A DNA stretch of 30,570 nucleotides, taken from UHGV virus genome UHGV-0106128; one strand, 5' to 3'. Under the pieces are notes generated by a model. That model did not search any database. It was not told the DNA's origin and saw only the letters and a list, made by a program, of their open reading frames with translations. Of this stretch, positions 11,994 through 23,333 are shown piece after piece. The position numbers and the translations under genes are program-made. This DNA comes from a virus. The stretch's first letter is position 1. Each line of letters starts with the position of its first letter.

Positions 11994-12924
11994 AGAATTA
12001 GCCGAACAGCACAGTTCGCAGCTCTCGTCCGTTCTTAAATCCGCAGTTGAAACCATCTCGTCAGACCAGGAAATCACGTTCAGGCTCTATGTCCGGCAGG
12101 TTCTGCCGCTGGATGGTTTTGTCTATTGGGTTAATGCGGAAATCATCAGTTGCGATGAACTGTGTCGTCTGAATATTGAGTCACCAACTCGTCTGAAAAT
12201 CAAAGGCAGCCTGCATCGTCAGGTTATTGCGATTCAGGACGAGTCTGTCTCGAAGGATGTGAACAACATTATTTTCACGCCTGTTCAGCAGGTTGATGAT
12301 TTTAATGTGGAAAATCCCGATGCGATCTATCTCGGTGAGTACGGCGGCGTCCAGTTCGCTTTTTCTCGAATGGAGAGCCGCTATCAGCAGTCGGGTATTT
12401 TTCATTATCGCGGCATGGCGATTTTGCCAACCATGCGTTCCCAGATTATCGACTGCGAGGAGGATATCAGCGACGAGCAGATCATATCCAACAGCATCCC
12501 GATCTGGCTGCAAATGAAAGATGCCGCGACCGTGTATCCGTCTTACCTGGTACCGCAGAACCTTCGCCCTCCGTATATCGCGGTGGATGTTCGCAACAGT
12601 ATTCCTTTGCAGGTGGCTCCCGTTGTTTTCGGTGGTGAGCGATTCCAGCTCGTCCAGGATTCGGTTCGCCTGACGCTTTACGGATTCAGCAACAAAATGG
12701 CGCTGGATCTTGTCGACTCGGTGGTGAACAGGGCGCTGGAGGAGGAAAAGTTTGGTGTAACCAATATTCCGGTGGTTCAGGACGCAAAGTCGGGACAGGT
12801 TGAAATCAACGCTCTGGCGAAGAAAAAGATTGTCGATTTTGACGTGAATTACTACCAGAGCACCGCCCGGGAAATATCCCGGCAGTTGATTGAAAAAGTC
12901 ATTTGTAAATATGAGGTTAAATAA
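11980..12924 (+). CDS. hypothetical structural protein (neck / tail completion)
   Basis: ORF track; start overlaps the upstream gene. Confidence 0.55.
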   Translation: MPSLEELAEQHSSQLSSVLKSAVETISSDQEITFRLYVRQVLPLDGFVYWVNAEIISCDELCRLNIESPTRLKIKGSLHRQVIAIQDESVSKDVNNIIFTPVQQVDDFNVENPDAIYLGEYGGVQFAFSRMESRYQQSGIFHYRGMAILPTMRSQIIDCEEDISDEQIISNSIPIWLQMKDAATVYPSYLVPQNLRPPYIAVDVRNSIPLQVAPVVFGGERFQLVQDSVRLTLYGFSNKMALDLVDSVVNRALEEEKFGVTNIPVVQDAKSGQVEINALAKKKIVDFDVNYYQSTAREISRQLIEKVICKYEVK

Positions 12925-14261
12925 TGGGGTTTAATATCGTCACGGTGAATGTGTCCCAGACCATCGGGGCCATTCCCTCGAATTTGCAGCAGATGTCCGC
13001 TGTTCTCTCGTTTGGCTCCACGACTCATGAGCCGGGAAAGCCTGTATTACTCACCCGTAATCAGGATATTAACGATCTGGTAAGAAATCCGATTGCTGCG
13101 TTGTCGGCGGCTGCCGCAGGAAAATCTGCGGCAAACGTCACCGTTACGATGACGCTTCCGGAAGGGAGCAACATCCGACGCGAAAACAGTTCTGAGGTGA
13201 AAATTGTTGTTTCCGGGTGTTCGCCCGACGCGTGGAATGGCGAATATACTGCTACCGTCACGGATGAAAAAACACTGACCTGGACGATTGCTGATTCTCA
13301 GCTTTCCGGTTCGCCAGTGACACTGGGGCAGTTTTCCATTGTTGGCAGTGAAAATCTGGTGACGGCAGTAAACACGTTTTTTGCCCAGGGAAATTCAGTT
13401 GGGATTTACCTGCTGGAGCTGGGAGTACAGAAAGGTGGAGTCAGTAAGGAAATCGCTGCACTGAAAGCTTATATGGAAGATCCGCTCCTGCGTTTTTATG
13501 CGTATCTGGTGCCGCAGCCGTGGGATGGTGACGCAGAGTTTATCAGTCTGGCAAAACTCCACACCGCCAACGAAGCGATGCAGTATTTCTTCGTGCTGAC
13601 GAAAACGCCGGACGACACGAATTACGTTTCGCCTTATGCCGGTATTAAGTCGGTTATTGCAACGGCGGATGATACGTATCCGGCGACAAACGCGGCAGCA
13701 GCCGTAATGTGGAACTATGTTTCCGCATCACCTTCAGAAATCAACAAGGTGCCGCCGATGGCATTTCGCTATCTACAGGCGGTAAACGCCCACAAGGGCA
13801 AAAATTCAATTCTGGTCACGATGACGAAGCAGAATATTAACTACGTCGACACGGGGGCTGAGGGGGGAATTTCCAACACGATTCTGGTGAAAGGCGTTAC
13901 CAGTGACGGTAACGATATGACGTACTGGTATTCCGTGGACTGGGTGCAGATTAATGTCGATATGCAGCTCGCCAACACGGTGATCAACGGCAGCAATAAC
14001 TCAATTAACCCGCTTTACTACAACCAGGACGGGATCGACCGTCTACAGCAGGTCGCACAGGCGGTGTTCAATACGGGCGTATCTTACGGCCTGGTCAACG
14101 GTCAGCCTGTCGTCGATGCAGTGCCTTTCCGCCAGTATATCAACACTAATCCCAATGATTACGGTATCGGGCGTTATGCAGGCCTTTCGGCCTCCTATAC
14201 GCCGATGCGCGGATTTGTCGAAATCATTTTTAACATCAATGTGACAATGCAGCTTTCGTGA
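12924..14261 (+). CDS. tail sheath protein (putative)
   Basis: 445 aa ORF directly followed by a tube-sized gene, chaperone pair and tape measure; downstream baseplate J/V-type genes imply a contractile tail. Confidence 0.5.
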   Translation: MGFNIVTVNVSQTIGAIPSNLQQMSAVLSFGSTTHEPGKPVLLTRNQDINDLVRNPIAALSAAAAGKSAANVTVTMTLPEGSNIRRENSSEVKIVVSGCSPDAWNGEYTATVTDEKTLTWTIADSQLSGSPVTLGQFSIVGSENLVTAVNTFFAQGNSVGIYLLELGVQKGGVSKEIAALKAYMEDPLLRFYAYLVPQPWDGDAEFISLAKLHTANEAMQYFFVLTKTPDDTNYVSPYAGIKSVIATADDTYPATNAAAAVMWNYVSASPSEINKVPPMAFRYLQAVNAHKGKNSILVTMTKQNINYVDTGAEGGISNTILVKGVTSDGNDMTYWYSVDWVQINVDMQLANTVINGSNNSINPLYYNQDGIDRLQQVAQAVFNTGVSYGLVNGQPVVDAVPFRQYINTNPNDYGIGRYAGLSASYTPMRGFVEIIFNINVTMQLS

Positions 14262-14272
14262 GGGACTGAACC

Positions 14273-14716
14273 GTGCCTAATCCAATGATCCCCGTTGGCA
14301 CCCTTAACCGGGTTCGCGCCAGCGTTAAATTCACCTCCCATTCTGAACTGAATGTGTCCGCCTCATTTCTGGCAAAAGAAGGCGTCGAATTGTCCTTTCA
14401 GGGCAATATCACGGAGTTTTTACCCGCTATGACGGGAGCCGTGCAGTCGCCGCAGCCATACATGATTTTACAGGCGCGTGTTCATCTGCTGCGTAGCCAG
14501 GCGCTGGGAAAACAATTCAAGGCGCAATGGGAAAAGAATGCCACGATCGGCGACGCAAAAGTGTATAGCGACAGCACGGTGTTCGGTGACTTCGATATCT
14601 ATAACACGGCGATCACCAACGTGCAGGATATGACCTTCGCCGGGGGCGAGCCGGGTGTGGCCATCACCATTACTGGTACGTATTACATCAACTCTGAAAT
14701 GTGGGATCTGGTATGA
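14273..14716 (+). CDS. tail tube protein (putative)
   Basis: 147 aa; GTG 14273 after AGGGA; position between sheath and chaperone genes. Confidence 0.5.
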   Translation: MPNPMIPVGTLNRVRASVKFTSHSELNVSASFLAKEGVELSFQGNITEFLPAMTGAVQSPQPYMILQARVHLLRSQALGKQFKAQWEKNATIGDAKVYSDSTVFGDFDIYNTAITNVQDMTFAGGEPGVAITITGTYYINSEMWDLV

Positions 14717-15330
14717 AAATCGCGCGAAATTTAAACCTGATTATTCCTGTCCGGACAGAAAAGGGTAATGGCTGGATCCATGCCACGCCGATCAGCAAAG
14801 AGGTGTTTAAAGAGCATTTCTTCATTCTGAGTAAAACTTTTTCTGCCATTTTTTCAGAAGGTCTTGGCGTCGTTGCGGGTCCGCGTATCGCTTTTTTGAT
14901 GCTGGAGCGGATCTCGCGTGATTCTAATATCTGGGAAGGTGATAAAGGGGTCCGTAATACACTTGTTAATGAGGTCATTCGCCTGGCAAACCTTGTTTAC
15001 CCAGTGGAGGGTAAAGGCTACGACACAATCCCTCTCGATATGGCGCTGGAGCGTGAAATCATTGATTTGGATGAAGTGGCGGGTGAGCTCATTTTTTTTA
15101 CATGCGTCTCGTCGATAAATTCACCGGAGCAGGCGAAGGGGACTATGGATGTGGTCAATGGAGTATGGAGCACTCAATGCTCGTTATTGAATCTTACGGA
15201 ATGGATCGCTTCATTGCCGACATTGAAATCAGCCGCCAGTTCTGGCGCGACGGCGAACACGTCATCAGCGACATCCTCGACTACTCAGCCGGAGCCGGAT
15301 TCAGAGACATCTGTGCAGATTCCGGCCTAA
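14713..15330 (+). CDS. tail assembly chaperone (zero-frame product)
   Basis: ORF track 14701..15330; ATG 14713 overlaps the tube stop (ATGA); lies directly upstream of the tape measure gene. Confidence 0.6.
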   Translation: MKIARNLNLIIPVRTEKGNGWIHATPISKEVFKEHFFILSKTFSAIFSEGLGVVAGPRIAFLMLERISRDSNIWEGDKGVRNTLVNEVIRLANLVYPVEGKGYDTIPLDMALEREIIDLDEVAGELIFFTCVSSINSPEQAKGTMDVVNGVWSTQCSLLNLTEWIASLPTLKSAASSGATANTSSATSSTTQPEPDSETSVQIPA

Positions 15331-15395
15331 ATGTAAAAACAGCAGCTCAGTTTCGTGAGCTGCTCAAATTCAAAAATCCCGCAGGAGTATTGTGA
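14713..15395 (+). CDS. tail assembly chaperone, predicted -1 frameshift product (about 227 aa)
   Basis: Frame of ORF 15102..15395 opens at 15087 and overlaps the zero frame across an 8-T run (15092-15099); its stop TGA 15393-15395 overlaps the tape measure ATG 15395. Confidence 0.45.
15093..15099 (+). other. candidate -1 slippery heptamer T_TTT_TTT (within an 8-T run) for the chaperone frameshift
   Basis: Zero-frame codons ATT TTT TTT ACA; the -1 frame continues YMRLVDKF... Confidence 0.45.
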
Positions 15396-17470
15396 TGGCT
15401 GGTAACCAGATGCCAGTTCTGACGCTGGATGTTAATGAAGAACACCTCAGGCGGCTTGAGGCGATATTTGAAAAGTATCGCAACGGACTGATGATTGGCC
15501 CTGCCGGTACGCCGCTTAAAATACCTTCAAATACCGGTCCGGGAGGTGGCTCTTGGCAGACAACCACAGGCGGAGAAGCCAATCAGGCTCCCAGGAAACC
15601 ATCTTCACCCGCGCCAGTTCTGGCTGCTTCCACTGATGGACGTTTAAGGGATGAAAAATGGCGCTTTGTTGGCAGCGGGAAAACACCTGATTCGCTGGTG
15701 AGCAACTATAAAGGTCGCGGCGAAACGATGTTTGATAAGTACCTCAGCGGGCTGGGGAAAAACGCCAAACAGACGCTGAAAACTTACAAGCAGATCAATT
15801 CTACGCTACGGACGACCACTTCGAGATTAAACAACCTGTTTAAAACCACCGTATCGTGGGGGACAAAACTTGCGGTTATGGGCGTTGCCGGGCCGTTTGG
15901 CTTTGGCATGATGGCTCGTAATGTTGTAGAGAAACAGAAAAATGCTGATGAATTGCAGGCAACTCCAGGAGAGTTAAAGGCGGCAGAAAGCACTTATTCG
16001 CCTTATTTTTCCGGTGTTGGTAATTTGCTCAATACACTGGCAGCCGCGCAAAATGACACTCAGCATTCTGCCTACAACGGGCTAATTGGATTAGGGATAA
16101 ATCCTAAAAAAGGGGCAGCAGAAAATCTTCCTGTATTGTTAGAAAGAGTTGCTGCTCTTGCAAAGGAGTATGAGGGAACCGGACTTACTCAGAGCATGCT
16201 CAGAGGTCGTGGCCTTGGATGGGTAAATTTTGGTATTGCTAACCAGTTAGTCAAATATCAGGACAAAATACCTGAACTCAACAAAGAGTTTTTATCGCGA
16301 GCTTCTCAGAATGACTCGTTGCTCACCTCTGGACATACAAGCCAGTATCAGAATCTTACCAGCAACTTAGAAAATAACTGGGATCAACTTACCAGCGGAT
16401 TTCAGGGGGCAATGTCGGGTAACTCTGTACAGCTAATTAGAATATCTAATGGTGTAAAGAATGCTGGTCTAAATTTCCTTAACGGTGAGAACTTTAAAAG
16501 AATTTTGACTGATGTTGAAACAGGTCTGGATAAACTTGGTAAGTATGTAAATGGCCCGGATTTTAATAACGACCTGAATAATTTTGCCGAAAATGTTGCA
16601 AAGGTTGTTAAGGCACTTAGCGGGTTTGTTGGTTTTGCGGTTGAACATCCCTGGCTTTTTGGGGCCGCAGTACTTGCTGGACCATCGAGAGTTGGTGCTG
16701 TGGCAGCCACAACGACCGGAGTTGCCGCCCGTGTTGTTGGTGGAAGTCTTCTTGGGGCTACAGCCGGAACAGTAGCTGGATTGGCTATTCCTACAAATGA
16801 CACACCTACCACCAGTGAGGAAATGAAAGGGCTGGAGGGGCGTTTCAACTTTGATTATTTTAACGAAGTGCAGGAGTGGCAAAAAAACAATCCGGGTAAG
16901 GTCTGGCCTGGAGGATTGCAGGGATTTTCAAATCAAGTAAACAGATCTGCATATTTATCCAGAGGGATCAGGAATAACAATCCCGGAAATCTTAATTTCG
17001 CAGGACAAAAAGGGGCTACCTTGGAATCGGGGCCAAATGCCCGTTTTGCCAGCTTCCCGACGATGCTGGAAGGCATTGCTGCCTTAGATCGGCAGGTAAT
17101 GCTATACCTGAAACGCGGCAAAAATACGATTGATCAGATTATTGATATTTATGCCCCTTCATCTGATGGAAATAACACATCGTCCTATAAAAGCTATCTC
17201 TCTCAGTACACCGGATTAGGTGTTAAGGAGAAAATCGATGGTTCTAATTTTGAGATAATGAGAAAGCTAATTCAGGGCATTATTAACCATGAAAATGGGG
17301 ACGCCGCTCGTGCAGTAAGTGGCGATGATGTGATGCGGGCGCTGGCAATGAACCGGGGAAACGTATATTCACCAAATAATACTTCTCAGGTAATCAGGCT
17401 CGACGTTCAACAAAAACCAGGTTCCGACATACTGGCACAACTCGCCGGAATGCAACAAATACCGGGGTAA
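15395..17470 (+). CDS. tail tape measure protein
   Basis: ORF track 15392..17470; GCAGGAG then ATG 15395; 691 aa; Gly/Ala-rich hydrophobic segments (GFVGFAVEHPWLFGAAVLAGP..., GAVAATTTGVAARVVGGSLLGATAGTVAGLAIP); follows the chaperone pair. Confidence 0.75.
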   Translation: MAGNQMPVLTLDVNEEHLRRLEAIFEKYRNGLMIGPAGTPLKIPSNTGPGGGSWQTTTGGEANQAPRKPSSPAPVLAASTDGRLRDEKWRFVGSGKTPDSLVSNYKGRGETMFDKYLSGLGKNAKQTLKTYKQINSTLRTTTSRLNNLFKTTVSWGTKLAVMGVAGPFGFGMMARNVVEKQKNADELQATPGELKAAESTYSPYFSGVGNLLNTLAAAQNDTQHSAYNGLIGLGINPKKGAAENLPVLLERVAALAKEYEGTGLTQSMLRGRGLGWVNFGIANQLVKYQDKIPELNKEFLSRASQNDSLLTSGHTSQYQNLTSNLENNWDQLTSGFQGAMSGNSVQLIRISNGVKNAGLNFLNGENFKRILTDVETGLDKLGKYVNGPDFNNDLNNFAENVAKVVKALSGFVGFAVEHPWLFGAAVLAGPSRVGAVAATTTGVAARVVGGSLLGATAGTVAGLAIPTNDTPTTSEEMKGLEGRFNFDYFNEVQEWQKNNPGKVWPGGLQGFSNQVNRSAYLSRGIRNNNPGNLNFAGQKGATLESGPNARFASFPTMLEGIAALDRQVMLYLKRGKNTIDQIIDIYAPSSDGNNTSSYKSYLSQYTGLGVKEKIDGSNFEIMRKLIQGIINHENGDAARAVSGDDVMRALAMNRGNVYSPNNTSQVIRLDVQQKPGSDILAQLAGMQQIPG

Positions 17471-18405: not shown

Positions 18406-19412
18406 TGCGTTATTACCGACTGGAAATTATTAATCCTAAAACAGGCAAGCCGCCAGTGGATAGCAATGGAAAACCCATTGGACCTTTTGATACCAATGAA
18501 ACACTAGGATGTGGGTTGCATATTGAATTTGACTTTGAAGTAACCGGCCTGGATGTAGTCTGTTCGGGTACGATGCTGACGATCTATGGATTACCAATTG
18601 ACATGCTGAAGCAAAGCGTAAGTTTGCAGGGTTGTCTGGTACGTATGAAAGCAGGCTTTGTTCAGGGGTTACCACTGGCAAATAAGGATCAACAGGGGGA
18701 GGTAATCTATGGTGAAATTTATCTGGCCTATGCCAACTGGATCGGCACGAACCAGACTTTAAACCTGGTAATAAATCCAAGCATACGCAAAACCGATGAC
18801 GGTAAACCTTTTTCAATTGAGGGGCAGGGGGAAGCAGGGGAAAGGGTGGGCGATGTTTTAGTCCGCGCTTTGCAAAAAGCATATCCCAATAAACTTATTG
18901 ATTGCACAGTCAGCGACAACCTGGTTTTGCCAGAGCCGTGGACGGGCAAATATACGGAGATTGGTTCGCTGGCTATGGTCGTAAAAAACGCCTCTATTGC
19001 GATGATGCGTAATGAAAGGTATAGCGGAATCGCCATCAGTATTCTTTCCGACAGAATACGAATCTACGATAACGCATCGGCAAAGTGGGGTGAGCCAAAA
19101 ACAATTCATGCCCATGAACTGGTCGGGCAGCCGACATGGATAGCGCCGTTTACCGTCAGTTTCAAATGCCCTATGAGAGGCGATATCAGATGTGGTGATG
19201 TGGTTAAACTGCCGGAGGGGCTATATTCTGGCGCTGCGTCGATTGTGATGGCTAATACAACGGTACCCAGCGTTATCGCAAAAAATTCGACCACGTTCAC
19301 CGGGAAATTTCTTGTGAAATCAGTCAGACACATTGGTTCGTATCTGACAGCCGATGGCGATGCCTGGGTGACGGTATTTGAGGCATATGCTGAGAACTGG
19401 GCGAGGGTGTAA
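18405..19412 (+). CDS. baseplate hub-like protein (P2 gpD / Mu gp44-like, putative)
   Basis: 335 aa; assignment by order relative to the tape measure and the spike-like gene. Confidence 0.4.
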   Translation: MRYYRLEIINPKTGKPPVDSNGKPIGPFDTNETLGCGLHIEFDFEVTGLDVVCSGTMLTIYGLPIDMLKQSVSLQGCLVRMKAGFVQGLPLANKDQQGEVIYGEIYLAYANWIGTNQTLNLVINPSIRKTDDGKPFSIEGQGEAGERVGDVLVRALQKAYPNKLIDCTVSDNLVLPEPWTGKYTEIGSLAMVVKNASIAMMRNERYSGIAISILSDRIRIYDNASAKWGEPKTIHAHELVGQPTWIAPFTVSFKCPMRGDIRCGDVVKLPEGLYSGAASIVMANTTVPSVIAKNSTTFTGKFLVKSVRHIGSYLTADGDAWVTVFEAYAENWARV

Positions 19413-20125
19413 TGTCAAACGCTCAAAAATTACCGTTTCTCCGAACACTGTCGGAGATGATGACCAGTTCTGGTAACCAGCAAGCCGAGCTTAAAGGCCG
19501 CGAATTGCCCTGCCATGTTGTCGATATCTGCGGGCAAATAGTGACAGTTCAGTTTGATATGCTGCCGGAGGGGATCAACTTCCCGCAGATAACAATCCCT
19601 GTCGCCACATTCCCGTATATCCGTTACCCGATACAGCCGGGCGATCGAGGAGTAACAATTGCCGCTGATGTATCACTGCGCGGTGTGTCCGGATTGGGAA
19701 CCGGTATGGCAACGCTTTCTTACTCGATGTCGCTCACTCCCCTGTTTTTCGTGCCACTGGCAAACAAGGAGTGGTCCGACGAAGATCCGCAAAAAATCGT
19801 TTTGTACGGTCCGGATGGCGCGATCCTCAAAACAGAGGACGGCAGTAGCTCGGTAATGGTGGCTCTGGAAGAAATCAGGCAAAAGTCGAAAGCTGTTTAC
19901 CTCGAGGCCGAAGATATTTTCCTGAACGGGAAAATTCACCTCAACGGACCGATCGTCCAGGACAAAGCCCAGATGAAGGATACAACCGCTTCGCTGATTG
20001 GTCCTCTTAATGTCGAGATGGATGCAGTTATCAACGGCGTGAGCGTCAGCGGCCACAGTCACGATGTGACTGGTGTTCAAAGCGGCAGTAGCACGATTAC
20101 GTCGAAGAAACCAAATCCTGGTTAA
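19412..20125 (+). CDS. baseplate spike / assembly protein V-like (putative)
   Basis: 237 aa; position before wedge and J genes; C-terminal Gly/Ser/Thr-rich tip; followed by a strong terminator. Confidence 0.45.
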   Translation: MSNAQKLPFLRTLSEMMTSSGNQQAELKGRELPCHVVDICGQIVTVQFDMLPEGINFPQITIPVATFPYIRYPIQPGDRGVTIAADVSLRGVSGLGTGMATLSYSMSLTPLFFVPLANKEWSDEDPQKIVLYGPDGAILKTEDGSSSVMVALEEIRQKSKAVYLEAEDIFLNGKIHLNGPIVQDKAQMKDTTASLIGPLNVEMDAVINGVSVSGHSHDVTGVQSGSSTITSKKPNPG

Positions 20126-20890: not shown

Positions 20891-20905
20891 ATGGAGGAGA
20901 CAAGC

Positions 20906-22066
20906 ATGGAAAATTTTGCAAATAAGTTAAAAATACACACAGAGCATGTTGCAAAAATGGGGGTGTTTTGTACAACTGAAGAAACGACAAAACAAGCACT
21001 CATTATGCCATTTCTAGATATTCTTGGTTTTACTCCGTATGATCCAAGAAAAGTCAAAGCTGAGTATAGTGCTGACTTCCCCGGGGTTAAGGCTAATGAA
21101 CGGGTTGATTACGCTTTATTTTGTCATGATGTTCCTGTGATGTTCATTGAGGCGAAATCGTTTTCAGAACAAATTGATAATCACTGCCCACAGCTATCAA
21201 GATATTTTAATTCAACACCGGAAGTTACTATATCAGCCATTACAAATGGTGTTGAATGGCGTTTTTTTACGGATTTGAAACAAAAAAACATAATGGATTC
21301 AACGCCGTTTTTAAAAATAAGAATGGATTCTCTAACTCACTCCGATATTACACAATTATTTCGTTTTCGTTATGATAAATTCAAACCAGAGGCTTTGCGG
21401 ACACTGGCTGAAGAAAGTGTTTATTTGAATTCATTTACTAAAACAATCAGTTCTAGTCTTCGTGAAGTTGATCTGGAGTTTGTTCGATATGTTGCTAGTC
21501 GTTCAAATATTGAGAGACAACTTAATCAGAGATTTCTTGAGTTCGTGACTCCATTAGTTAAACAGGCCGTTGAGCGCGCTGTTAGCGCAATGGTGGTTTC
21601 CGGGCTATCTACACAACCGGTAGAGCAAACTAAAGAAAATGATGCAACGGATACACAAGTTAATAACGCCATTGTTGATGAAGAAAACCCCAACATAATA
21701 ACCACAGCCAAAGAATTGGAACTATTTGAAAGGGTAAAACAAATCATACAAACAGAAGATAATATAGAATATAAAGATACTGAGTCATATTTTGGTGTAC
21801 TATTGAATGGTAAAACTAATAGATGGCTGTTAAGATTTTATGATAAAAAATCTTCATTTATAACATTACCTATTTCGCTTAGTGAAGTTCAGTTGAATGA
21901 AATAAGACGAGCTCGACTTGATACGGATGGTAAAAGGATACATATAACTAATCCGGAAGATATACTTCGCATATCTGGTTTGATTCTGGATTCATACGAG
22001 TATGTTAAAAATGATGATAATTTCCGCCGAGGGTCCAGAGTGAGCAGTTTAGAAGAGGTTGAATAA
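20906..22066 (+). CDS. 386-aa protein with N-terminal PD-(D/E)xK nuclease-like domain (type I restriction HsdR N-terminal-like); C-terminal ~250 aa unassigned; candidate defence gene
   Basis: ORF track 20891..22066; GGAGGAG 20893-20899 then ATG 20906; visibly AT-rich; motifs PFLDILGF, ERVDYALF and VMFIEAKS (D68, E82, K84); flanked by a promoter-like sequence and an intrinsic terminator. Confidence 0.75.
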   Translation: MENFANKLKIHTEHVAKMGVFCTTEETTKQALIMPFLDILGFTPYDPRKVKAEYSADFPGVKANERVDYALFCHDVPVMFIEAKSFSEQIDNHCPQLSRYFNSTPEVTISAITNGVEWRFFTDLKQKNIMDSTPFLKIRMDSLTHSDITQLFRFRYDKFKPEALRTLAEESVYLNSFTKTISSSLREVDLEFVRYVASRSNIERQLNQRFLEFVTPLVKQAVERAVSAMVVSGLSTQPVEQTKENDATDTQVNNAIVDEENPNIITTAKELELFERVKQIIQTEDNIEYKDTESYFGVLLNGKTNRWLLRFYDKKSSFITLPISLSEVQLNEIRRARLDTDGKRIHITNPEDILRISGLILDSYEYVKNDDNFRRGSRVSSLEEVE

Positions 22067-22106: not shown

Positions 22107-23333
22107 ATGTCAGAAATACCAATTACTATGACCAGTGCGGGGGCGCAGCCTACGCCACCCAATGATTTGCTCGCGAATCTTATCACCAGAGTTGCCGAAA
22201 AAGTACCTGGATATACAGCCAACCTTCCGGCGGGGCTTATTACAGACCTTGCCAGCACGGCTGTCGGGGCGCTGGCATTAATAGACCAGGCGCGGGTGGA
22301 CCTTATTAACTCCGTAAGCCCATACGGCGCAAATATTCCGTTACTGATGCAACTCGGAAACATTTATGGAGCACAGAAGGGATTAAGTACAAATACGGCG
22401 GTATACGTGGTGTTTGAGGCGTTGCCGGGGTTTGGTATCCCTAAAGGATTTGTTGTCGGTGACGGCAACTACCAGTATGCAGTTTCCCGCGATACGGTGG
22501 TGCCGGAAAGCGGGCAGACTGAGCCAGTCTACTGTGTGGCCACAACGTCAGGCTCATGGGCTGTACCGGAAGGAACCGTAACGCAGGTCATTACATCGGT
22601 ACCCAAAGATCAGCCTGTAAAATGCACGAACCTTACCGCAGGGATGCCAGGTCAGGAGGCGCAAACGTGGGCATCTTACCGCGCCGAAGTCATGGAGTCC
22701 GGCATGTTTGGTGTGCAGGGAACACCGGATTGCTTTAAAGCGATGCTCAAATCAGTAAGCGGTGTGCGAGAAAACCTGATTTCTTTCCGGCAGTCGTCGC
22801 TGGGGAAATGGGTTGCGGTTGTTGGTGGCGGTGATCCGTATGATGTGGCTTATGCTATTTACAAATCTGTACCGGATATTTCGAAACTGACCAACGATGT
22901 TAGCAATCCATCTGGTGCGGCAGTGGAAAAACGCACGGTTTCAATAACCGTTTCGCCAGATGTTTATCAGGTGCCGTTCGTTATCCCGTCATCACAAAAC
23001 GTCATGGTGCTAATCACCTGGAACACTGTATCTGATGATTATGTTGATCCGGCGGGTATTGCTATGGCTGTGCAGCAAAACGTTGCTGATTACATCAATT
23101 CTATTGAAGTCGGACACCCGATAAATCTGCTGCGAATCCAGGATATTTTTACCAGTTCCGTCAGATTGTTGGTTGATGCGACGTTGATCTCAACAATCAG
23201 TGTGAGCATTGGCATTAATGGCCATATTGTTCCTCCGGCAAAAGACACAAGCCTGGTTTATGGCGATACCTATTCCTATTTTTCGACGGTGGTATCACAG
23301 GTTCAAGTTAACAAGTATGCAATATCTGACTGA
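22107..23333 (+). CDS. baseplate J-like protein (Mu gp47 / P2 gpJ family)
   Basis: 408 aa; GGAG then ATG 22107; N-terminal region fits the Baseplate_J pattern (GYTANLPAGLITDL..., LMQLGNIYGAQKGLSTNTAVYVVFEALPGFGIPKGFVVGDG). Confidence 0.7.
   Translation: MSEIPITMTSAGAQPTPPNDLLANLITRVAEKVPGYTANLPAGLITDLASTAVGALALIDQARVDLINSVSPYGANIPLLMQLGNIYGAQKGLSTNTAVYVVFEALPGFGIPKGFVVGDGNYQYAVSRDTVVPESGQTEPVYCVATTSGSWAVPEGTVTQVITSVPKDQPVKCTNLTAGMPGQEAQTWASYRAEVMESGMFGVQGTPDCFKAMLKSVSGVRENLISFRQSSLGKWVAVVGGGDPYDVAYAIYKSVPDISKLTNDVSNPSGAAVEKRTVSITVSPDVYQVPFVIPSSQNVMVLITWNTVSDDYVDPAGIAMAVQQNVADYINSIEVGHPINLLRIQDIFTSSVRLLVDATLISTISVSIGINGHIVPPAKDTSLVYGDTYSYFSTVVSQVQVNKYAISD

What the first reader, a model, noticed from the sequence alone, without database searches (positions are those of the whole stretch)
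15087..15110. Programmed -1 frameshift signature in the tail assembly chaperone gene upstream of the tape measure
The zero-frame chaperone ORF (14713..15330) and a -1 frame ORF (open from 15087 to 15395) overlap across an 8-T run containing the heptamer T_TTT_TTT. The -1 frame ends in a TGATG overlap with the tape measure start. This matches the conserved G/GT-type chaperone arrangement of tailed phages. Unusually, the zero frame continues for about 77 codons past the slip site into a Ser/Thr/Ala-rich tail, and an 8-T run could also support transcriptional slippage.
Basis: partly seen in the sequence, partly recalled or inferred. Interest (0 to 1): 0.4.

Follow-up and report, generated by a model that had tools for sequence, protein, structure and literature searches.

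The report
Phage tail chaperone frameshift, long overlap
The gene between the tail-tube and tape-measure genes of this E. coli prophage carries a conserved -1 ribosomal slip site that should give two proteins with the same first 129 residues and different ends; this is a well-known phage device, but here it sits in an unannotated family and mid-gene, so about 76 codons are read in two frames.

Summary
A T8 run lies at 15092-15099. The in-phase heptamer T_TTT_TTT is at 15093-15099. The zero-frame ORF is 14713-15330 (205 aa). The -1 frame is open only from 15087 and ends at TGA 15393-15395, overlapping the tape-measure ATG at 15395.

About 100 related loci, down to roughly 30% protein identity, include cultured myoviruses of Klebsiella, Pantoea, Yersinia and Shewanella. 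In every locus read that was not a T-run length variant, the slip site and both downstream frames are kept. GC-rich relatives that rarely use TTT still have NNT TTT TTT. Some relatives have no start codon anywhere in the -1 ORF. Three have only TAT/TCT TTT A, a T4 run, yet keep the -1 ORF. This argues for ribosomal slippage rather than polymerase slippage or separate initiation.

The unusual part is real. The zero frame continues for 54-100 codons past the slip site across the family, against a mean of 26 nt in annotated chaperone frameshifts. Both frames show protein-level conservation and suppressed synonymous change. The slip site falls inside a helix of a confidently modelled fold.

No database annotates the frameshift, and there is no Pfam match. 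I rate it a new variant of a known kind, of moderate interest.

The parts
12924..14261 (+). Tail sheath gene (445 aa); context showing a contractile-tail module
   Evidence: phrog_205 'tail sheath', E=3e-53. Cultured relatives of the Yersinia group are myoviruses by electron microscopy (PMC9224151).
14273..14716 (+). Tube-sized gene (147 aa; PGAP starts it at ATG 14285) directly upstream; its stop overlaps the chaperone start (ATGA)
   Evidence: ORF list. phrog_6566, function unknown. A 146-154 aa gene sits in this position in all relatives. The tube assignment is inferred from position.
14713..15330 (+). Zero-frame product, the 'G-like' chaperone, 205 aa. Residues 8-170 are modelled as one folded domain; residues 175-205 are a disordered Ser/Thr/Ala-rich tail.
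   Evidence: phrog_11810 matches full length. 694 cluster representatives have E<=1e-3; the 150 best are listed (weakest 2e-24), and those at 32-45% identity align to residues 1 to about 185. AlphaFold2 gives pLDDT 85.7 and pTM 0.78, with helix 119-135 spanning the slip site. 85 of 150 representatives have [IVLM]-P at the second- and third-last residues, so they end in [IVLM]-P-x; the window protein ends in I-P-A.
15093..15099 (+). Slippery heptamer T_TTT_TTT (Phe128-Phe129), inside the T8 run 15092-15099; the next base, A, makes the first -1 codon TAC (Tyr)
   Evidence: Sequence. The T8 run is kept in 69 of 72 close loci; one has T_TTT_TTC and two have T9. All 19 diverged loci, 5 of 6 and 4 of 4 cultured phages have T_TTT_TTT; L097 has G_TTT_TTT. 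Variants TAT TTT A and TCT TTT A occur in 3 lineages. Codon-usage expectation is 0.034 per lineage.
15099..15395 (+). -1 frame extension, the 'T-like' domain: 98 codons plus stop. Fused to residues 1-129 it gives a 227-aa product.
   Evidence: phrog_14324 matches full length. Homologous -1 tails occur in all relatives, with motifs ...YG[VIM]xxF[IL]xD[IV][DE]xxRxFWR... and ...EGF...A..FRQR. pN/pS is 0.34 in the non-overlapping part. The stop abuts the tape-measure start.
15100..15327 (+). Dual-coding overlap: 76 zero-frame codons that are also read in the -1 frame
   Evidence: Nucleotide diversity by phase switches at the slip site, and both third positions are suppressed. pS drops from 0.55 to 0.22 (zero frame) and from 0.36 to 0.25 (-1 frame); pN/pS is 0.74 and 0.60 against 1.26 in the +1 control frame. 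Smith-Waterman scores between diverged lineages have medians of 80 (zero frame), 86 (-1) and 50 (+1 control). Stop avoidance gives Fisher p=0.002 (zero frame) and 2e-9 (-1 frame).
15395..17470 (+). Tape-measure-like protein (691 aa) with a C-terminal lytic transglycosylase domain; its ATG overlaps the -1 stop (TGATG)
   Evidence: phrog_7694 matches full length; phrog_2276 'tail length tape measure protein' matches residues 485-640. Relatives annotate it as lytic transglycosylase.

Best explanation
This is a programmed -1 ribosomal frameshift in the gene between the tail tube and the tape measure of a temperate myovirus (an E. coli prophage).

Most ribosomes read the zero frame and make a 205-aa protein. 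It consists of one compact alpha/beta domain (about residues 8-170) and a disordered Ser/Thr/Ala-rich tail that ends in I-P-A; 85 of 150 family representatives likewise end in [IVLM]-P-x.

A minority of ribosomes slip back one base while tRNA-Phe decodes T_TTT_TTT (15093-15099). They continue with TAC ATG... and make a 227-aa protein. This product shares residues 1-129 and then carries a different, about 98-residue, mostly helical domain that ends exactly at the tape-measure start codon.

By analogy with lambda gpG/gpGT and P2 E/E+E', the shared N-terminal part would bind the tape measure, and the -1 domain would recruit the tube protein. A fixed low ratio of the two products would be set by slip efficiency.

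Unlike the classical cases, the slip is not at the end of the first gene but at about 63% of its length, inside a helix. The two products therefore have alternative C-terminal modules, and 76 codons are dual-coding.

Shown here: the sequence arrangement; its conservation; protein-level selection in both frames; the absence of a usable start codon for the -1 ORF in several relatives; and the fold confidence of the zero-frame product. Inferred: that slippage actually occurs, its efficiency, the chaperone role, and the binding partners.
For: 1. Anatomy is exact.
2. Close relatives: in 69 of 72 IMG/VR loci (66-100% identity) the zero frame is exactly 205 aa (210 aa in L059) and the -1 frame is open from the T-run to the tape-measure start (12 nt short of it in L063). 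One locus has T_TTT_TTC, and two T9 variants break the pattern.
3. Distant relatives: 19 loci, 6 more, 4 cultured phages and 3 'YF/SF' lineages, 32 diverged loci in all (about 29 distinct sequences). All keep a Phe-codon slip site, 54-100 zero-frame codons after it and 97-156 -1 codons. The -1 frame ends at or near the next gene's start, except in L098, where the contig ends first.
4. Codon usage: GC-rich relatives use TTT for only 8-25% of Phe codons yet keep NNT TTT TTT. The expected frequency is 0.034 per lineage; it is observed in 23 of 25.
5. The frame switch is visible in substitution patterns. Synonymous suppression and pN/pS below the control frame hold in both frames. Both frames are conserved as proteins above the third-frame control. 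Both frames avoid stops.
6. The -1 ORF has no ATG, GTG or TTG at all in L103 (Yersinia phage vB_YenM_21.09) and L094, and none before codon 62 in four others.
7. Runs of T7, T6 and T4 still go with an intact -1 ORF, which fits tRNA slippage on U_UUU rather than polymerase slippage.
8. The zero-frame region 130-170 is confidently folded as part of the domain. The N-terminal part keeps its fold in the fusion model.
9. Synteny: sheath, tube-sized gene, this gene, tape measure, baseplate hub.
10. Known precedents are lambda G/GT (PMC5009743) and P2 E/E+E' at TTTTTTG without a downstream structure (PMC3091744).
Against: - There are no protein or RNA data. Slippage and its efficiency are inferred.
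- U_UUU_UUU is reported as much less shift-prone in E. coli than A_AAA_AAG (PMC5009743).
- No conserved downstream RNA structure was found, and there is no conserved, well-spaced upstream Shine-Dalgarno-like element. Efficiency may therefore be low, although lambda and P2 also lack stimulators.
- The -1 domain was modelled with low confidence from a shallow alignment.
- The stop-avoidance test for the zero frame is only moderately significant (p=0.002), and lineages are not fully independent.
- In this window the run is T8, so some polymerase slippage cannot be excluded.
Confidence: 0.85

Rival explanations
1. Transcriptional slippage: RNA polymerase adds one U at the T8 run, producing a fraction of U9 mRNAs that encode the same 227-aa fusion. 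The ribosome does not slip.
For: The window and most close relatives have T8, a length at which bacterial polymerases slip detectably (my own knowledge; reviewed in PMC5009743). A DNA-level T9 variant (L023) gives exactly the fused 227-aa ORF. The protein product would be identical, so proteomics alone cannot tell the two apart.
Against: The conserved feature is the in-phase heptamer, not run length. The run is T7 in L077, L091, L092, L096, L099, L100 and L069 (as T_TTT_TTC). It is T6 in L097 and T4 (TAT TTT A / TCT TTT A) in L106-L108. All of these keep an intact, homologous -1 ORF. A T4 run cannot support polymerase slippage.
Confidence: 0.08
2. Two separate overlapping genes: the -1 ORF is translated on its own from ATG 15102 as a 97-aa protein.
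For: ATG 15102 exists and is kept in the close clade. PHROGs and a few gene callers list the 97-aa ORF as a protein.
Against: No Shine-Dalgarno-like motif lies in the 12 nt scanned (4-16 nt upstream of ATG 15102). In distant relatives the equivalent codon encodes Cys, Leu, Ile, Gly, Val or Ala. Two lineages have no ATG, GTG or TTG anywhere in the -1 ORF, and four more have none before codon 62. The -1 frame opens only 6-36 nt before the heptamer in 15 of the 27 lineages scanned.
Confidence: 0.03
3. Artefact or decay: a homopolymer sequencing error or a real frameshift mutation has split one gene (true run T9 or T7), or the -1 ORF is an unexpressed by-product of zero-frame constraints.
For: Homopolymer length variants do occur in assemblies: T9 in L023 and L076, and an apparent T7 variant in P0122.
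Against: T8 is present in 69 of 72 viral loci and in the four E. coli and phage loci read at this site (L001-L004), which come from independent records; 92 complete E. coli genomes carry the locus. Both continuations are conserved as proteins above the third-frame control. The part of the -1 ORF that does not overlap has pN/pS of 0.34. The zero-frame tail is confidently folded.
Confidence: 0.03

Closest known systems
Lambda gpG/gpGT-type tail assembly chaperone frameshift (Levin 1993; Xu, Hendrix & Duda 2004, 2013, 2014; reviewed in PMC5009743)
   Same: The gene lies between the major tail or tube gene and the tape measure. A -1 slip on an in-phase heptamer gives two products from one start with a shared N-terminus. 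The -1 ORF has no start of its own and ends at the tape-measure gene. No RNA stimulator is needed.
   Different: In lambda the slip is near the 3' end of G, so GT is essentially all of G plus T. In 2,476 annotated SEA-PHAGES cases the mean distance from slip site to zero-frame stop is 26 nt (PMC10885494). Here it is 229 nt (162-300 nt in the family). The slip lies inside a helix of the folded domain, and the zero-frame product has about 76 residues of its own. There is no detectable sequence or fold homology. The slippery site is U_UUU_UUU rather than G_GGA_AAG.
Phage P2 E / E+E' (myovirus; Christie 2002, as summarised in PMC3091744)
   Same: A contractile-tail phage of enterobacteria with a T-rich slippery site (TTTTTTG in P2). 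No downstream structure. The gene lies between the tube and tape-measure genes.
   Different: P2 E is 91 aa and E+E' is 142 aa, and as far as I recall the slip is close to the end of E. Here the proteins are 205 and 227 aa, the overlap is long, and the two frames are both conserved. There is no homology (no PHROG or Pfam link).
Long dual-coding overlaps reached by frameshifting in RNA viruses (e.g. influenza PA-X, cited in PMC5009743)
   Same: A minority product shares the N-terminus and then reads a long stretch that also codes in the zero frame. Synonymous-site suppression marks the overlap.
   Different: Different biology and a different slip direction and mechanism. Here both C-termini belong to an assembly chaperone of a DNA phage.

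Membership tests
G/GT-type tail assembly chaperone frameshift | The gene lies directly between the major tail (tube) gene and the tape-measure gene | tested here: met
   The order is sheath, a 147-aa tube-sized gene, this gene, then the tape-measure-like gene, in the window and in all relatives.
G/GT-type tail assembly chaperone frameshift | The second ORF is in the -1 frame, overlaps the first, has no translation start of its own, and ends at or near the tape-measure start | tested here: met
   The -1 frame is open only from 15087 and ends in TGATG. Two relatives have no start codon in the -1 ORF, and four have none before codon 62. The -1 stop is adjacent to the next gene in the relatives.
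G/GT-type tail assembly chaperone frameshift | A conserved in-phase slippery sequence lies within the overlap | tested here: met
   T_TTT_TTT (or T_TTT_TTC, G_TTT_TTT, or N_NNT_TTT) occurs at the same aligned position in every lineage read, against codon-usage expectation.
G/GT-type tail assembly chaperone frameshift | [quoted passage not shown] | tested here: not met
   The slip is at codon 128-129 of 205. Zero-frame residues 130-170 are folded. The distance to the stop is 229 nt, against a mean of 26 nt (PMC10885494).
G/GT-type tail assembly chaperone frameshift | Sequence or fold homology to known chaperone families (Pfam Phage_TAC_*, lambda gpG) | tested here: inconclusive
G/GT-type tail assembly chaperone frameshift | Both products are made in a fixed ratio, are required for tail assembly, and are absent from virions | not testable with these tools
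   This needs proteomics, reporter assays and genetics.
Transcriptional-slippage recoding (long A/T runs, e.g. IS elements, Shigella type III genes) | A conserved homopolymer long enough for polymerase slippage (about 8-9 or more), independent of codon phase | tested here: not met
   The run shrinks to T7, T6 and T4 in relatives that keep the arrangement; the phase is constant.
Independent overlapping gene (overprinted ORF with its own initiation) | A conserved start codon with a ribosome-binding site | tested here: not met
   ATG 15102 is clade-specific and has no Shine-Dalgarno-like motif in the 12 nt scanned upstream; start codons are absent in several lineages.

The most novel reading that the evidence does not exclude
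This family may be a distinct design of tail assembly chaperone. The frameshift does not append a domain to a complete chaperone. Instead it swaps C-terminal modules in mid-fold. The zero-frame product finishes the domain (helices 138-167) and adds a disordered tail that in most representatives ends in [IVLM]-P-x, possibly a docking peptide with its own partner. The -1 product replaces all of this with a helical domain. On this reading, a 54-100-codon stretch has been kept under selection in two frames across a family of at least hundreds of 50%-identity clusters. It would be one of the longest conserved dual-coding overlaps in a phage structural gene, and one that current frameshift predictors and annotation pipelines miss systematically.
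Probability: 0.55. Interest if true: 0.6.

Novelty: new variant of a known kind. Interest (0 to 1): 0.45.

Why it matters
Practical value:
- A widespread group of temperate myoviruses is affected. It covers 92 of 5,426 complete E. coli genomes, plus Salmonella, Shigella, Klebsiella, Pantoea, Yersinia, Shewanella and many metagenomic lineages.
- This group has an essential tail gene product that no public record annotates.
- The family has no Pfam model.
- Both PHROG families are labelled 'unknown function'.

Conceptual value:
- The conserved tail-chaperone frameshift does not have to sit at the end of the first gene.
- Here the two products share only the first two-thirds of a fold.
- A long stretch is constrained in two frames.
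- This gives a natural test of which part of a chaperone binds the tape measure and which parts are product-specific.

Mechanistic value:
- The series of natural slip-site variants is U_UUU_UUU, U_UUU_UUC, G_UUU_UUU, and UAU_UUU or UCU_UUU.
- It is a ready-made set for measuring tandem against single-tRNA slippage.

Tried and rejected
- Locus search with protein alignments A2 and A3 failed because there was no conserved 7-10 residue stretch. The genome-contig scan was therefore never used.
- P0128 found nothing in viral contigs.
- Downstream RNA stimulator, none found:
  - Single-sequence fold of 15085-15220 gave z=+0.79.
  - Folds of 25 lineages gave z mostly between -2 and +1.2, with no common hairpin.
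  - RNAalifold predicted zero pairs.
- An upstream Shine-Dalgarno-like stimulator was considered. GGTGAG ends 5 nt before the heptamer in the window, which is too close, and it is not conserved (read).
- Pfam gave nothing for either frame or for 19 fusions.
- PDB profile searches gave nothing.
- afdb50 was not available.
A mixed alignment was accepted, but the -1 domain came out at low confidence, so I draw no conclusion about its fold.
- Christie 2002 (PMC135442) is not held, so the P2 slip position is given from memory and from PMC3091744.
- The T8 run alone, taken as evidence, was rejected because it is no more frequent than chance.

Full report
**1. What is in the sequence**

The window is an E. 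coli prophage. It is 100% identical over this gene to several complete E. coli chromosomes. It is about 90-93% identical over this region to phage Rac-SA53 and to a record named Actinobacillus phage vB_Apl-pPE4.

The local gene order on the + strand is as follows:
- Tail sheath, 12924-14261 (phrog_205).
- A 147-aa tube-sized gene, 14273-14716.
- The gene in question, 14713-15330.
- A 691-aa tape-measure-like protein with a transglycosylase domain, 15395-17470.

Further downstream lie a baseplate hub, a baseplate wedge and tail fibres. Terminase, portal and capsid genes lie upstream.

The T8 run is 15092-15099. The zero-frame codons are ATT TTT TTT ACA, so T_TTT_TTT (15093-15099) is an in-phase X_XXY_YYZ heptamer.

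The -1 frame has a stop at 15084-15086. It is then open to TGA 15393-15395, which shares its A with the tape-measure ATG. A -1 slip gives ...ELIFF|YMRLVDK..., a product of 129 + 98 = 227 aa. The zero frame continues for 76 codons after the slip.

All four other in-phase heptamers of the gene lie upstream of the -1 stop. A T8 run as such is no more frequent than chance.

**2. How public records treat it**

GenBank records and PGAP annotate only the 205-aa zero-frame ORF as a hypothetical protein, with no frameshift.

PHROGs holds the two ORFs as separate families of unknown function, phrog_11810 and phrog_14324. Pfam has no match.

Gene callers almost never call the -1 ORF. A search found only 16 proteins.

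**3. Close relatives**

Across 72 IMG/VR loci at 66-100% protein identity:
- The zero frame is exactly 205 aa (210 aa in L059).
- The -1 frame stays open from the run to the tape-measure start (12 nt short of it in L063).
- 69 loci have T8, one has T_TTT_TTC, and two have T9. One of the T9 loci yields a fused 227-aa ORF.

Nucleotide diversity by codon phase switches at the slip site. The three values are for zero-frame codon positions 1, 2 and 3:

| Region | Position 1 | Position 2 | Position 3 |
|---|---|---|---|
| Upstream of the slip | 0.14 | 0.08 | 0.56 |
| -1-only part | 0.11 | 0.34 | 0.15 |
| Overlap | 0.13 | 0.24 | 0.22 |

Upstream, the variable position is the zero-frame third position. 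In the -1-only part it is the -1 third position.

A Nei-Gojobori count gives the following:
- Zero frame: pS is 0.55 upstream and 0.22 in the overlap.
- -1 frame: pS is 0.36 downstream and 0.25 in the overlap.
- pN/pS in the overlap is 0.74 (zero frame), 0.60 (-1 frame) and 1.26 (+1 control frame).

Both 'silent' positions are constrained. This is the expected mark of dual coding.

**4. Distant relatives**

An exhaustive profile-free search found 694 cluster representatives (50% identity clusters) with E<=1e-3. The 150 best are listed (weakest E 2e-24); those at 32-45% identity are 180-200 aa long and align to query residues 1 to about 185. The zero-frame continuation is therefore a conserved part of the family.

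Phe128-Phe129 are nearly invariant. Of 150 representatives, 140 have FF at this position.

I read DNA for 32 diverged loci, about 29 distinct sequences. They include cultured phages:
- Klebsiella vB_Kpn_Chronis.
- Pantoea PdC23.
- Yersinia vB_YenM_21.09, whose group are myoviruses by electron microscopy (PMC9224151).
- Shewanella vB_Sb_QDWS.

Every one has:
- A Phe-codon slip site at the same aligned position.
- 54-100 zero-frame codons after it.
- A -1 ORF of 97-156 codons with a homologous sequence. Conserved motifs include YG[VIM]xxF[IL]xD[IV][DE]xxRxFWR, EGF and FRQR.
- A -1 ORF that ends at or near the next gene's start. The one exception is L098, where the contig ends first.

**5. Is the slip site selected as nucleotides?**

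Yes. In relatives of 55-67% GC, TTT makes up only 8-32% of Phe codons, and only 13-23% of codons end in T. Yet the site is NNT TTT TTT. The expected frequency is about 0.034 per lineage, and it is observed in 23 of 25.

**6. Ribosome or polymerase?**

The run length varies while the phase does not:
- T8 where the preceding codon is GTT or ATT.
- T7 after AGT, ACT, GCT or TGT, and in T_TTT_TTC.
- T6 in L097 (GTG TTT TTT).
- T4 in three lineages that read GTA TAT TTT ACG, ATA TAT TTT ACT or GTG TCT TTT ATT. These still carry an intact homologous -1 ORF.

The common core is U_UUU followed by A, where a single tRNA-Phe can re-pair. The heptamer adds tandem re-pairing.

This pattern fits ribosomal slippage. 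A T4 run cannot support polymerase slippage. For the T8 of this window, a contribution from polymerase slippage cannot be excluded.

**7. Separate initiation?**

ATG 15102 is specific to the close clade and has no Shine-Dalgarno-like motif in the 12 nt scanned upstream of it. Two lineages have no ATG, GTG or TTG anywhere in the -1 ORF, and four others have none before codon 62. The -1 ORF must therefore be reached from the zero frame.

**8. Are both continuations real proteins?**

- Between diverged lineages, Smith-Waterman scores over the overlap have medians of 80 (zero frame) and 86 (-1 frame). The +1 control frame gives 50 and shuffled sequences give about 25.
- Resampling synonymous codons shows stop avoidance. 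It gives Fisher p=2e-9 for the -1 frame given the zero-frame protein. It gives p=0.002 for the zero frame given the -1 protein. Lineages are not fully independent, and GC-rich ones carry little information.
- AlphaFold2 models the zero-frame protein at pLDDT 85.7 and pTM 0.78 as one fold up to residue 170. Helix 119-135 spans the slip site, followed by helix 138-152, strand 155-157 and helix 161-167. Residues 175-205 are disordered.
- 85 of 150 representatives have [IVLM]-P at the second- and third-last residues, so they end in [IVLM]-P-x.
- In the fusion model the N-terminal part keeps its fold. The -1 part is helical but of low confidence, because only eight close homologues could be supplied.

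**9. Stimulators**

No conserved downstream structure was found. No conserved upstream Shine-Dalgarno-like element at a useful spacing was found either. Lambda and P2 also lack them (PMC5009743, PMC3091744).

U_UUU_UUU is reported as a weaker shifter in E. coli than A_AAA_AAG (PMC5009743). I therefore expect a low percentage, which fits a chaperone ratio, but this is inference.

**10. Comparison with what is known**

The device is the conserved tail-assembly frameshift of long-tailed phages (Xu et al. 2004; lambda G/GT; P2 E/E+E').

Four defining features are met: position, a -1 ORF without a start, a conserved slippery site, and an end at the tape measure.

One feature is not met. [quoted passage not shown]
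- The review describes the lambda slip as near the 3' end of g (PMC5009743).
- The mean distance from slip to stop in 2,476 annotated SEA-PHAGES cases is 26 nt.
- The PRFect predictor succeeded on only 2 of the 43 genomes in the Atkins et al. set with a slip-to-stop distance above 51 nt (PMC10885494).
- Here the distance is 229 nt, and 162-300 nt across the family.

Homology to known chaperones could not be shown. The chaperone role is inferred from architecture.

**11. Verdict**

It is an unannotated family-wide -1 frameshift of the known G/GT kind.

Its atypical feature is a mid-fold slip site with a long overlap conserved in both frames. This makes the two products alternatives rather than 'short' and 'short plus extension'.

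My confidence in the frameshift is 0.85. I rate the novelty as a new variant of a known kind and the interest as 0.45.

Noticed in passing
L023:1880-1888; L076 (run starts about 1882); protein P0122: Homopolymer length variants of the slip site occur in public assemblies. L023 and L076 have T9; in L023 this fuses the two frames into one 227-aa ORF. P0122 ends ...ELVFLHASRR, as an apparent T7 variant would. These could be sequencing errors or real mutants.
   Followed up: partly
L079-L088, -1 frame about 50-75 codons after the slip site (e.g. L081 ...VPCSCAKRARTCECDGGRETC...): A subgroup of GC-rich relatives has a four-cysteine insert (CxC...CxC) in the -1 domain. It looks like a small metal-binding knuckle. 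It is encoded by the same nucleotides as the Pro/Ala/Ser-rich disordered tail of the zero frame.
   Followed up: no
window 15395-17470 and relatives L077, L096, L101: The cell-wall-degrading domain at the C-terminal end of the tape-measure-like protein differs between relatives. It is SLT/transglycosylase in the window and L101, Phage_lysozyme2 (PF18013) in L077, and VanY peptidase (PF02557) in L096.
   Followed up: no
window 20891-22066: A 391-aa ORF matching a PHROG annotated as endonuclease (phrog_4225, E=3e-149) sits inside the baseplate gene block, between 19412-20125 and the wedge gene 22107-23333. It may be a mobile or moron insertion.
   Followed up: no
PP818812.1 (L001): The record named Actinobacillus phage vB_Apl-pPE4 is 92.7% identical at the DNA level to this E. 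coli prophage over 1.3 kb. That is unexpected for a Pasteurellaceae host, and the host assignment may need checking.
   Followed up: no
OK094664.1 and OP650936.1: Shewanella phage vB_Sb_QDWS and 'Hujiaoplasma phage zrk29-1' (host given as a Tenericutes bacterium) have the same record length (47,902 bp) and identical match statistics. They look like the same genome deposited under two very different hosts.
   Followed up: no
NZ_CP026085.1, NZ_CM135829.1 (hits H32, H34): Two assemblies labelled E. coli DH5alpha (about 4.83 Mb) carry a relative of this prophage at 85% identity. So do LY180 and SA53-3. I would not expect this in a K-12 derivative, so the strain labels may be wrong.
   Followed up: no
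window 14273 vs 14285: The tube-sized gene can start at GTG 14273 (the longest ORF) or at ATG 14285 (the PGAP choice in identical genomes). The true start is unresolved.
   Followed up: no
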